Source: Escherichia coli
Lineage (GTDB): Bacteria; Pseudomonadota; Gammaproteobacteria; Enterobacterales; Enterobacteriaceae
Direction: 5' to 3' (one strand)
NCBI RefSeq assembly: GCF_965641715.1
Contig: NZ_OZ282453.1
DNA: 64,000 bases
Made by a program: the position numbers. The stretch's first letter is position 1. The number at the start of each line of letters is the position of its first letter. Shown one piece after another: positions 37,533-40,500 of this stretch.

Positions 37533-40500
37533 TAAGTGAACTGGCGCAGAATCGTCTGGCTATTGGCGTTGGTTACTCTGCCAACGCTTGCGGAGGAGAC
37601 GCCGTTACAACTGGCGCTGCGCGGTGCGCAGCACGATCAACTGTATCAGCTGTCGTCATCAGGCGTGACCAAAGTCTCAGCATTACCTGACACGCTCACC
37701 ACGCCGTTAGGGAGTTTATGGAAACTGTATGTTTACGCCTGGCTGGAGGATACCCATCAACCGGAGCAGCCCTACCAGTGTCGCGGAAACTCCCCGGAAG
37801 AGGTTTATTGTTGTCAGGCTGGGGAGAGCATAACGCGCGATACCGCGCTGGTACGTTCCTGTGGGCTCTATTTTGCGCCGCAGCGGTTGCATATTGGGGC
37901 AGATGTGTGGGGGCAATACTGGCAACAGCGTCAGGCACCTGCGTGGTTAGCGTCTCTTTCTACGCTGAAGCCAGAAACCTCGGTAACGGTTAAATCGCTG
38001 CTTGATTCATTAGCGACGTTACCTGCGCAAAACAAAGCTCAGGAAGTCTTACTGGATGTGGTGCTGGACGAGGCGAAAATCGGTGTCGCATCTATGCTCG
38101 GTAGTCGGGTACGGGTGAAAACCTGGTGCTGGTTTGCCGATGATAAACAGGAAATCCGTCAAGGTGGTTTTGCTGGCTGGTTAACCGATGGTACACCGCT
38201 GTGGGTGACTGGCAGTGGCACCAGCAAAACGGTACTGACCCGTTATGCGACGGTGCTTAATCGGGTTTTGCCAGTGCCGACGCAAGTTGCCAGTGGGCAA
38301 TGTGTAGAGGTGGAGCTATTTGCGCGCTATCCGCTGAAGAAAATCACAGCGGAGAAGAGTACGACGGCAGTAAAACCCGGCGTACTTAATGGGCGCTATC
38401 GTGTGACGTTTGCCAATGGTAACCACATTACGTTTGTCAGCCACGGTGAGACGACCTTACTGAGCGAAAAGGGCAAACTGAAATTGCAGTCGCATCTCGA
38501 TCGTGAAGAGTATGTTGCCAGAGTTCTGGATCGCGAGGCGAAAAGTACGCCACCTGAGGCAGCGAAAGCCATGACCGTGGCGATACGCACTTTTTTACAG
38601 CAAAACGCCAATCGGGAAGGCGATTGCCTGACCATCCCTGACAGCAGCGCCACGCAGCGTGTTTCGGCTTCGCCAGCGACCACGGGGGCGCGAACGATGA
38701 CCGCCTGGACGCAGGATCTCATCTATGCGGGCGATCCGGTTCATTATCACGGCAGTCGCGCTACCGAAGGGACGCTTTCCTGGCAGCAAGCCACGGCCCA
38801 GGCGGGGCAGGGGGAGCGTTACGACCAGATACTCGCGTTTGCTTATCCCGACAACAGCCTTAGCCGCTGGGGAGCGCCACGCTCAACCTGTCAGTTATTA
38901 CCCAAAGCGAAAGCCTGGCTGGCGAAAAAAATGCCGCAGTGGCGGCATATATTACAAGGCGAGACGGGGTACAACGAACCAGACGTGTTTGCGGTCTGTC
39001 GTTTAGTCTCAGGTTTCCCCTATACCGATCGGCAGCAGAAACGGCTGTTTATTCGTAACTTCTTTACGCTTCAGGATCGGCTGGATTTAACCCATGAGTA
39101 TCTGCACCTGGCCTTTGATGGTTATCCTACCGGGCTTGATGAGAACTATATCGAAACGCTGACCCGACAATTATTAATGGACTAATGCTATGCGAAAGAT
39201 TTTTCTTCCGTTGTTACTGGTGGCGCTTTCGCCTGTCGCTCACAGTGAAGGTGTGCAGGAAGTCGAGATTGACGCACCGCTCTCAGGCTGGCATCCGGCA
39301 GAGGGCGAAGATGCCAGTTTTTCACAATCGATCAATTACCCGGCGTCGTCCGTCAACATGGCAGATGATCAAAATATCTCAGCGCAGATCCACGGCAAAA
39401 TAAAGAATTATGCTGCGGCGGGTAAAGTTCAGCAGGGCCGGCTGGTGGTCAACGGTGCCAGTATGCCGCAGAGAGTTGAATCCGATGGTTCATTTGCACG
39501 CCCTTATATTTTCACTGAAGGCAGCAACAGCGTGCAGGTCATCAGCCCGGATGGGCAAAGCCGACAAAAAATGCAGTTTTACTCAACGCCGGGTACAGGA
39601 ACGATTCGTGCACGTTTACGGCTGGTTCTCTCGTGGGATACGGACAATACCGATCTCGATCTCCATGTTGTCACGCCCGATGGAGAACACGCCTGGTACG
39701 GTAACACCGTGCTGAAAAACAGTGGTGCACTGGATATGGATGTCACGACGGGGTATGGACCCGAGATTTTCGCCATGCCAGCGCCAGTTCACGGGCGCTA
39801 TCAGGTGTATATCAACTACTATGGTGGGCGCAGCGAAACGGAATTAACCACCGCCCAACTGACGCTGATCACCGATGAAGGATCGGTCAATGAGAAACAG
39901 GAAACATTTATTGTACCGATGCGTAATGCTGGCGAGCTGACGCTGGTGAAAAGTTTTGACTGGTGATCCATCCCTTCACACAACCTGGCTCTTTCTTTTT
40001 TCAGATAAGACTGCTGGGCGATCTGCCGACGCCAGGATATAACCATTAACAAGCGTCGGCAGATTGGTCATTTCTTTTTTTTCGTACTGAGAACTGTCCA
40101 TTTACTCCGGCTTTCCTGGTTAAGGCAATGGTTTCTAAGCGATACGCATTATTGCAATGGTGACAGAACATTGCGGTAACACGCTTTTACCGCTACCTTA
40201 ACCACACTCCATCGGTCACCTGAGGCGGAGCTTCGCCCCTTTGAAATACCTTGCTTCTTTTCGTACAACCCTGAAAGCCTCGCGCTACATGTTCAGAGCA
40301 TTGGCGTTAGTGCTCTGGCTGTTGATTGCTTTTTCATCCGTTTTTTACATCGTTAATGCGTTACATCAGCGAGAATCGGAAATTCGTCAGGAATTTAATC
40401 TGAGTTCCGATCAGGCTCAGCGCTTTATTCAACGCACCTCTGATGTGATGAAAGAGCTGAAGTACATCGCTGAAAATCGCTTATCGGCAGAAAACGGTGT

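What the first reader, a model, noticed from the sequence alone, without database searches (positions are those of the whole stretch)
39967..40240. Only 274 bp between yfaP and rcsC: the atoSC-atoDAEB operon is absent at this strain-variable junction
In the K-12 arrangement as I recall it, the two-component system atoSC and the acetoacetate/short-chain fatty acid operon atoDAEB (about 7 kb) lie between rcsC and yfaP. Here the interval is 274 bp and holds only a hairpin with a 10-bp stem (40023..40062) and a T-run. This marks an insertion/deletion hotspot and predicts that this strain cannot use acetoacetate via Ato.
Basis: partly seen in the sequence, partly recalled or inferred. Interest (0 to 1): 0.45.

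Follow-up and report, generated by a model that had tools for sequence, protein, structure and literature searches.

The report
Old ato-operon deletion scar
The short gap between yfaP and rcsC is an old, common deletion allele of E. coli that removed the acetoacetate (ato) genes and left a decayed stub of atoS, so this is an ordinary, already reported gene presence/absence difference.

Summary
yfaP ends at 39966, rcsC starts at 40241, and the 274-bp gap holds no ato gene.

Compared with K-12, 7,410 bp are replaced by 194 bp (39968-40161). Those 194 bp are not empty spacer. They are a strongly diverged copy of the rcsC-atoS intergenic region plus a relic of the atoS 5' end (15 of 27 residues match AtoS 23-49). 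It is a perfect 12-bp stem, 40021-40032 / 40053-40064.

The same scar is in 1,536 of 5,426 complete E. coli genomes, including O157:H7, O55:H7 and LY180, and in E. whittamii. K-12-type ato is in about 3,930 genomes. Other lineages carry different, independent deletions. So ato at this locus is ancestral and the scar is an old deletion allele.

Variable ato carriage among E. coli and Shigella is already published. The prediction "no Ato pathway" is plausible but cannot be shown from 64 kb: at least 41 genomes carry both the scar and ato, and the LAA island is reported to carry ato.

One open point remains. The hairpin core is far better conserved than the rest of the scar (3/75 versus 31/120 differences from E. 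whittamii). It may act as a terminator between yfaP and rcsC.

The parts
39190..39966 (+). yfaP, the last gene of the yfaA-T-S-Q-P operon, 258 aa
   Evidence: ORF list; 98.8% aa identity to K-12 YfaP; annotated as yfaP in matching genomes
39968..40161 (.). Haplotype-specific 194-bp scar that replaces 7,410 bp of K-12 (2319956-2327365: part of the rcsC-atoS spacer, atoSC, atoDAEB and the atoB/yfaP terminator)
   Evidence: blastn boundaries against K-12; present at >=80% coverage in 1,536 of 5,426 complete E. coli genomes and in E. whittamii
39967..39996 (.). Junction segment next to the yfaP stop; hypervariable, and the right-hand deletion breakpoint lies within it
   Evidence: 14/30 differences from E. 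whittamii; indels and SNPs among E. coli scars; no match to the K-12 atoB-yfaP spacer
39976..40101 (-). Relic of the atoS 5' end. In this strain it reads as a 41-codon ORF, MDSSQYEKKEMTNLPTLVNGYILASADRPAVLSEKRKSQVV, but it is not a conserved coding sequence
   Evidence: 39992-40056 is 79% identical to K-12 atoS codons ~28-49, E = 3e-6; 15/27 aa identical to AtoS 23-49, E = 5e-7; position and orientation match atoS in K-12; stop codons or frameshifts in O157, LY180, PSS-07, CH427, L003 and E. whittamii
40015..40082 (+). Hairpin (perfect 12-bp stem 40021-40032 / 40053-40064, 20-nt loop, extendable to 40015-40070) followed by the run UUUCUUUUUUUU at 40071-40082. Candidate atypical terminator downstream of yfaP
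   Evidence: not called by the consensus terminator scan, which requires a loop of 3-8 nt; no Rfam match
39997..40071 (.). Conserved core of the scar (hairpin plus the former 'AVLSEK' codons)
   Evidence: 3/75 differences from E. whittamii versus 31/120 in the rest of the scar, Fisher p = 6e-5; nearly invariant among sampled E. coli scars
40102..40161 (.). Diverged remnant of the atoS-proximal part of the rcsC-atoS intergenic region
   Evidence: Gapless but only ~60% identical alignment to K-12; 10/60 differences from E. whittamii
40162..40240 (+). rcsC upstream region shared by the scar and ato+ haplotypes; includes hairpin 40173-40193
   Evidence: 99.5% identical to K-12 from 40162 onward; 3/79 differences from E. 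whittamii; stem reported
40241..43090 (+). rcsC, 949 aa
   Evidence: ORF list; 99.9% aa identity to K-12 RcsC

Best explanation
The 274-bp yfaP-rcsC interval is the scar of one old deletion. The deletion removed about 7.2 kb: atoS from about codon 50 onward, atoC, atoDAEB, and the atoB/yfaP bidirectional terminator. What remains is the rcsC upstream region, a diverged atoS promoter region and about 30-40 decayed codons of atoS. This remnant no longer codes for protein. The scar is a common allele in E. coli (about 28% of complete genomes; O157:H7, O55:H7, LY180/W and many STEC) and occurs with the same endpoints in E. whittamii. The intact ato cluster at this locus is the ancestral state in Escherichia. 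Recombination has homogenised the flanks between the two alleles right up to the heterologous segment. Shown here: the absence of ato from the interval, the breakpoints relative to K-12, the atoS relic, the allele frequency, the shared scar in a second species, and independent deletions elsewhere. Inferred: a single origin, the direction of the event (deletion rather than insertion) and its age.
For: - The breakpoints are at 39967 and 40162, with 96-100% identity to K-12 in the flanks up to those points.
- The scar contains atoS-derived sequence in the correct place and orientation.
- The relic breaks the motif IGYIVETEGR, which is invariant in the sampled AtoS homologues down to about 77% identity and nearly so (IGYVVETEGR) at 61-65%, so its changes arose after inactivation.
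- The reading frame is broken in different ways in different strains.
- The scar is in 1,536 of 5,426 complete genomes at 97-100% identity, once per genome.
- E. whittamii has the same scar: gap of 276 bp, same endpoints, 83% identical in the scar against about 90% in the flanks. That is the pattern expected for an orthologous neutral segment older than the species split.
- The ato cluster at the same locus is present in most E. coli and in the divergent lineage E69.
- A K-12-type atoS stub remains in Escherichia sp. MOD1-EC7003, and E. albertii has the K-12-type atoB-yfaP spacer.
- K-12 has no tRNA or integrase annotated at the locus, and no flanking direct repeats were found in the window interval.
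Against: - The relic differs from functional atoS at 19 of 75 aligned positions, yet differs from the E. whittamii relic at only 3 of 75. A simple neutral clock from a single deletion does not fit this without extra assumptions: constraint on the core, later gene flow, or a long history in an unsampled lineage.
- Only one genome each of E. whittamii and E. albertii was available, and the E. albertii contig ends 64 bp past yfaP.
- E. fergusonii, E. marmotae and E. ruysiae were not recovered by the single genome scan.
- The exact ancestral breakpoints cannot be read because the relic has diverged.
Confidence: 0.85

Rival explanations
1. The hairpin plus U-run, built from the antisense strand of the atoS relic, is a functional element rather than junk. 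It would be an atypical intrinsic terminator or insulator that stops yfaA-yfaP transcripts from reading into the now co-directional rcsC, replacing the atoB/yfaP terminator lost in the deletion. This is compatible with the deletion-scar explanation and adds a function to it.
For: - The stem is a perfect 12 bp, extendable to 40015-40070, with dG -29.5 kcal/mol and z -4.4. The run UUUCUUUUUUUU starts directly after the extended stem.
- The K-12 terminator-like hairpin CACCCGATA...TATCGGGTG, flanked by A and T runs, lies in the deleted segment (sequence shown).
- After the deletion, yfaP and rcsC are co-directional and 274 bp apart.
- The core is as conserved as the rcsC leader: 3/75 and 3/79 differences from E. 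whittamii, against 31/120 in the rest of the scar, p = 6e-5.
- 10 of the 19 substitutions relative to functional atoS fall in the 24 arm nucleotides, and the K-12 arms are only 5/12 complementary (and manual count).
Against: - The loop is 20 nt, and the consensus terminator scan does not call the site.
- The U-run is not conserved: UUUCUUAUUUUU in O157 and B1 strains, UUUCUUGUUGUU in L003 and FDAARGOS_1337, UUUCUCAUUGUG in E. whittamii.
- Two of the three E. whittamii changes weaken the stem (dG -20.4, z -1.4).
- A metagenomic E. coli scar has an uncompensated G>C change in the stem.
- There is no covariation and no expression data.
Confidence: 0.3
2. The empty site is ancestral, and the ato cluster in K-12-like strains is an inserted genomic island.
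For: ato is an accessory trait in E. coli (PMC9602453), and a mobile copy exists on the LAA island (PMC5539235). The 194 bp are not found as such in K-12.
Against: - The 'empty' site contains atoS-derived sequence in the native position and orientation.
- ato or its remnants occupy the same locus in E69, MOD1-EC7003 and probably E. albertii.
- No tRNA, integrase or flanking repeats are present.
Confidence: 0.04
3. The 41-codon minus-strand ORF (40101..39976) encodes a real small protein.
For: An ATG preceded by GGAG (sequence); the ORF is intact in this strain; PGAP annotates it as a hypothetical protein in a few genomes.
Against: A TAA stop at codon 9 in O157 and LY180, a TAG stop in PSS-07 and E. 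whittamii, and frameshifts in CH427 and L003. Only three small protein clusters exist among 5.8 billion sequences.
Confidence: 0.03
4. The short gap is an assembly artefact or a collapsed region.
For: None found.
Against: The same contiguous junction is present in 1,537 complete genomes from many laboratories and sequencing platforms.
Confidence: 0.01

Closest known systems
K-12 rcsC-atoSC-atoDAEB-yfaP locus (b2218-b2225)
   Same: The flanking genes, their order and orientation are the same, with 96-100% nucleotide identity up to 79 bp upstream of rcsC and 1 nt past the yfaP stop.
   Different: 7,410 bp of K-12 are replaced by a 194-bp scar. yfaP and rcsC become co-directional neighbours, and the atoB/yfaP terminator is gone.
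ato-negative yfaP-rcsC junction of E. coli O157:H7, O55:H7, LY180 (an E. coli W derivative, per my own knowledge) and many STEC
   Same: The same scar at 97-100% identity, the same endpoints, one copy per genome.
   Different: This window has an uninterrupted A8/T8 run and an open 41-codon relic ORF; the common O157 and B1 alleles carry a TAA stop there. No complete genome is closer than 98.2% to the window over 24 kb.
Published variable carriage of ato in E. coli and Shigella
   Same: ato prevalence differs by more than 50% between phylogroups A and B1 (PMC9602453). AtoS/AtoC are listed as not present in three of the four Shigella columns of a published table; column identities were not read (PMC9496106).
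   Different: The passages of those papers that I read score gene presence only and do not mention the atoS relic, the breakpoints or the shared scar in E. whittamii. I did not read the papers in full.
Rho-independent (intrinsic) terminators
   Same: A GC-rich stem followed by a U-rich run on the sense strand downstream of an operon's last gene.
   Different: The loop is 20 nt rather than 3-8 nt, the U-run varies between strains, stem mismatches are not compensated, and the consensus scan does not detect it.

Membership tests
ato-negative deletion-scar allele of the E. coli rcsC-yfaP locus | yfaP and rcsC are contiguous and co-directional, with no ato gene between them | tested here: met
   the same junction is in 1,537 complete genomes
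ato-negative deletion-scar allele of the E. coli rcsC-yfaP locus | Carries the specific 194-bp scar sequence with the same endpoints | tested here: met
   97-100% identity over the full 194 bp in 1,536 genomes; aligned
Pseudogene relic of atoS | Significant sequence similarity to the atoS/AtoS N-terminus | tested here: met
   blastn 79% over 66 nt, E = 3e-6; tblastn 15/27 identical, E = 5e-7 in a small search space
Pseudogene relic of atoS | Syntenic position and orientation (divergent from rcsC) | tested here: met
   The relic is on the minus strand and starts 139 bp upstream of the rcsC start. K-12 atoS starts 166 bp upstream of rcsC
Pseudogene relic of atoS | Loss of coding constraint | tested here: met
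   The invariant motif IGYIVETEGR is replaced by NGYILASADR; stops and frameshifts vary between strains
Intrinsic terminator | Stable GC-rich stem | tested here: met
   12 perfect pairs, dG -29.5 kcal/mol, z -4.4
Intrinsic terminator | Short loop (about 3-8 nt) | tested here: not met
   The loop is 20 nt; the site is not reported by the scan
Intrinsic terminator | U-tract directly after the stem, conserved among relatives | tested here: inconclusive
   Present in this window after the extended stem (40071-40082), but interrupted or lost in O157, B1 strains, L003 and E. whittamii
Intrinsic terminator | Termination of transcription in vivo | not testable with these tools
   No transcript data available
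Genomic island insertion (ato as the inserted element) | tRNA or att site, integrase, flanking direct repeats, and an empty site free of island sequence | tested here: not met
   No such features are annotated in K-12; no informative repeats; the empty site contains atoS sequence
REP/BIME or other dispersed palindromic repeat | Many copies per genome | tested here: not met
   The scar occurs once per genome (median 1, maximum 2); the arm sequence occurs only at the hairpin within the window
Known RNA family (Rfam 15) | Match to a covariance model | tested here: not met
   No match at E <= 1 in 39800-40400

The most novel reading that the evidence does not exclude
The atoS stub has been co-opted. 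Its hairpin core is kept by selection in both E. coli and E. whittamii as a terminator or insulator (or another structured element) between the yfa operon and rcsC. In addition, the ato-plus and ato-minus alleles are an ancient polymorphism that has persisted or moved across Escherichia species boundaries rather than a recent loss.
Probability: 0.25. Interest if true: 0.4.

Novelty: already known. Interest (0 to 1): 0.2.

Why it matters
The finding helps interpret genomes. A strain with this junction lacks the native AtoSC/AtoDAEB route for acetoacetate and short-chain fatty acids unless it carries a mobile copy, and this tracks major E. coli lineages. Phylogroup assignment of the named strains is from my own knowledge; the difference in prevalence between phylogroups A and B1 is from PMC9602453.

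The scar also changes the context of rcsC. The yfa alpha-2-macroglobulin operon now points straight at rcsC, and its original terminator is gone. This could alter Rcs envelope-stress signalling in those lineages, but it has not been tested.

The scar is a convenient single-locus marker of an old allele shared with E. whittamii. None of this opens a new question of broad interest.

Tried and rejected
- **Rfam:** the scan of 39800-40400 at E <= 1 found nothing.
- **Promoters and terminators:** the consensus scan found no sigma-70 site in the gap. It found only a 7-bp stem in the rcsC leader and a stem inside rcsC.
- **Full-length AtoS closer to the relic than K-12 AtoS:** the relic peptide found only three relic-ORF clusters. 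AtoS N-termini from homologues at 54-99% identity all keep the motif that the relic has lost. So a functional xenologous source for the relic's peculiar residues is rejected.
- **Metagenome scan** with a scar-specific 21-mer gave one E. coli contig, with one uncompensated stem SNP.
- **Direct example of a scar genome with ato elsewhere:** I read the whole pheV island of STEC1589, 781-902 kb, and it has no ato. The second match in that genome was not located.
- **Small-protein reading of the 41-codon ORF:** rejected.
- **Quasi-palindrome correction as the origin of the hairpin:** not supported, because the K-12 arms are only 5/12 complementary and both arms changed.
- **Direct repeats at the junction:** only short, chance-level repeats.

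Full report
**Observation.** The window runs in reverse orientation relative to K-12. On the plus strand it carries yfaS (32916-37535), yfaQ (37536-39185), yfaP (39190-39966) and rcsC (40241-43090). rcsB and rcsD follow on the minus strand. The gap between the yfaP stop and the rcsC start is 274 bp. In K-12 the same two genes are separated by atoS, atoC, atoD, atoA, atoE and atoB. No Ato protein has a match anywhere in the 64 kb apart from paralogous domains inside rcsC. Its arms are 40021-40032 and 40053-40064, 12 nt, perfectly complementary, 20 nt apart. The folding energy is -29.5 kcal/mol, z = -4.4, and about 0.0005 such repeats are expected by chance.

**Breakpoints and content of the gap.** Against K-12, homology ends at window 39967 (K-12 2327366, one base after the yfaP stop). 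It resumes at 40162 (K-12 2319955, 79 bp upstream of rcsC). Flank identity is 96-100% right up to these points. So 7,410 bp of K-12 are replaced by 194 bp.

These 194 bp are not unrelated spacer:
- 39992-40056 is 79% identical to K-12 atoS codons ~28-49 (E = 3e-6).
- The minus-strand translation MTNLPTLVNGYILASADRPAVLSEKRK matches AtoS 23-49 (MVIVPTLTIGYIVETEGRSAVLSEKEK) at 15 of 27 positions.
- The segment 40102-40161 aligns without gaps, at about 60% identity, to the atoS-proximal part of the K-12 rcsC-atoS spacer.

The relic sits where atoS sits in K-12 and points the same way. The interval is therefore a deletion scar. It retains the rcsC upstream region, a diverged atoS promoter region and a stub of atoS. 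Everything from about atoS codon 50 to within about 25 nt of the yfaP stop is gone, including the terminator-like hairpin between atoB and yfaP that is visible in the K-12 sequence.

**The relic is not a gene.** In this strain it reads as a 41-codon ORF with a GGAG-ATG start. The common O157:H7 and LY180 alleles have a TAA stop at codon 9. PSS-07 and E. whittamii have TAG stops, and CH427 and a Logan contig have frameshifts. AtoS homologues keep the motif (V/I)PT(L/I)xIGY(I/V)VETEGR(S/A)A down to about 61-65% identity; more distant ones (46-62%: P0029, P0049, P0055) do not. The relic has NGYILASADRP there. These changes must therefore have arisen after inactivation. They do not come from a functional foreign allele.

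**How common and how old.**
- The contiguous junction is in 1,537 of 5,426 complete E. coli genomes, and the 194-bp scar in 1,536 of them at 97-100% identity, once per genome. Examples are O157:H7, O55:H7, O145:H28, LY180 and many STEC.
- K-12-type atoDAEB is in 3,926 genomes, the K-12-type atoB-yfaP junction in 3,829, and the K-12-type atoS 5' end in 3,931.
- E. whittamii has the same scar: a 276-bp gap with the same endpoints. The scar is 83% identical to the window and the flanks about 90%. This is what an orthologous, mostly unconstrained segment older than the species split should look like.
- The ato cluster or its remains occupy the same locus in the divergent lineage E69 (complete cluster). 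Escherichia sp. MOD1-EC7003 has a K-12-like atoS stub of about 100 codons joined to the 3' end of atoB plus REP elements, which is a different deletion. E. albertii probably also has ato, because it carries the K-12-type atoB-yfaP spacer, although its contig ends there.

I conclude that ato at this locus is ancestral in Escherichia. The window carries an old deletion allele, and loss has happened more than once. Further independent events in E. coli support the idea of a variable locus. These are an atoD..yfaQ deletion, a strain lacking the whole yfa operon with atoB next to gyrA, and IS insertions.

**What is already known.** Variable carriage of ato is published. A genome survey of meat-plant E. 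coli found ato prevalence differing by more than 50% between phylogroups A and B1 (PMC9602453). A review table lists AtoS/AtoC as not present in three of its four Shigella columns; I did not read the column headings (PMC9496106). The LAA pathogenicity island of LEE-negative STEC is reported to carry atoSC and atoDAEB in its module I (PMC5539235).

K-12-type atoS (3,931 genomes) plus the scar (1,536) exceed 5,426 by 41, so some scar genomes carry ato elsewhere. I could not display a concrete example. The pheV island of STEC1589, a scar strain with a second match, has no ato. From 64 kb, the loss of the native Ato pathway is shown. Loss of the function in this strain is only likely.

**The hairpin.** The hairpin lies inside the relic on the strand antisense to atoS, which is the sense strand for yfaP. 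With G-U and outer pairs the stem extends to 40015-40070. In this window it is followed directly by UUUCUUUUUUUU at 40071-40082.

The deletion removed the native atoB/yfaP terminator and made yfaP and rcsC co-directional. A substitute terminator or insulator is therefore a reasonable idea. Two observations favour a function:
- The 75-nt core containing the hairpin differs from E. whittamii at only 3 positions, against 31 of 120 in the rest of the scar (Fisher p = 6e-5). This is the same level as the rcsC leader, 3 of 79.
- 10 of the 19 differences from functional atoS fall in the 24 arm nucleotides, while the K-12 arms are only 5/12 complementary.

Several points weigh against it:
- The loop is 20 nt, and the consensus scan does not call the site.
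- The U-run is broken in most other alleles.
- Two of the three E. whittamii changes weaken the stem, giving -20.4 kcal/mol and z = -1.4.
- A metagenomic E. coli scar has an uncompensated stem change.
- There is no Rfam match.

I rate a functional role at about 0.3. The uneven conservation remains unexplained. It also means a simple neutral clock cannot date the deletion: 19 of 75 changes relative to atoS, but only 3 of 75 since the split from E. whittamii.

**Verdict.** The finding is real and the synteny call is correct. It is an ordinary, already reported presence/absence polymorphism. The new details are the atoS relic, the exact boundaries, the shared scar in E. whittamii and the unusually conserved hairpin core. 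Novelty: already known. Interest: low (0.2).

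Noticed in passing
window 15541-17774 (stretch 15778-17667 absent from K-12): A LysR-type regulator (292 aa, minus strand) and an MFS transporter (416 aa) are intact here. K-12 keeps only the yfaH pseudogene fragment at this spot.
   Followed up: partly
window 32916-37535: yfaS (alpha-2-macroglobulin family) is an intact 1,539-codon ORF here, whereas K-12 annotates yfaS as a pseudogene.
   Followed up: no
window 55070-55406: A 113-bp tandem repeat with 3.0 copies (92% matches) lies in the spacer corresponding to K-12 eco-mqo. K-12 has about six copies at 2304400-2305065.
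   Followed up: no
window 40117-40204: Upstream of rcsC, the arms GGTTAAGG (40118-40125) and CCTTAACC (40197-40204) enclose the hairpin 40173-40193. They are kept in both the scar and the K-12 haplotype, although the sequence between them differs by about 40%. The arms are invariant, so there is no covariation evidence. This may be part of an rcsC leader or promoter.
   Followed up: partly
L005 10781-11535 (Escherichia sp. MOD1-EC7003): An independent ato deletion. About 100 codons of K-12-like atoS (97% identical) are joined to the 3' end of atoB (79% identical) with REP-like elements, giving a 755-bp yfaP-rcsC gap.
   Followed up: partly
L028 (E. coli NT1N28) and L029 (E. coli O166:H15 JNE21-009): NT1N28 has a deletion from mid-atoD to mid-yfaQ. 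JNE21-009 keeps ato but lacks the whole yfaA-yfaP operon, so atoB lies next to gyrA.
   Followed up: partly
window 28000-52000: No complete E. coli genome among the 5,426 is more than 98.2% identical over these 24 kb, so the source strain has no close complete relative in that collection. Shigella is not in the collection.
   Followed up: no
atoB-yfaP junction in other E. coli genomes (query L001 13895-14767): 1,133 genomes, including B2 strains such as 83972, are only 90-95% identical to K-12 across the atoB-yfaP junction. I judge this high for within-species comparison and suggestive of deep haplotypes in this region.
   Followed up: no
window 7656-7809: Two adjacent K-12 alignments overlap here (K-12 2357772-2357802, near rpnE/ypaA), suggesting a small local duplication or indel relative to K-12.
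   Followed up: no
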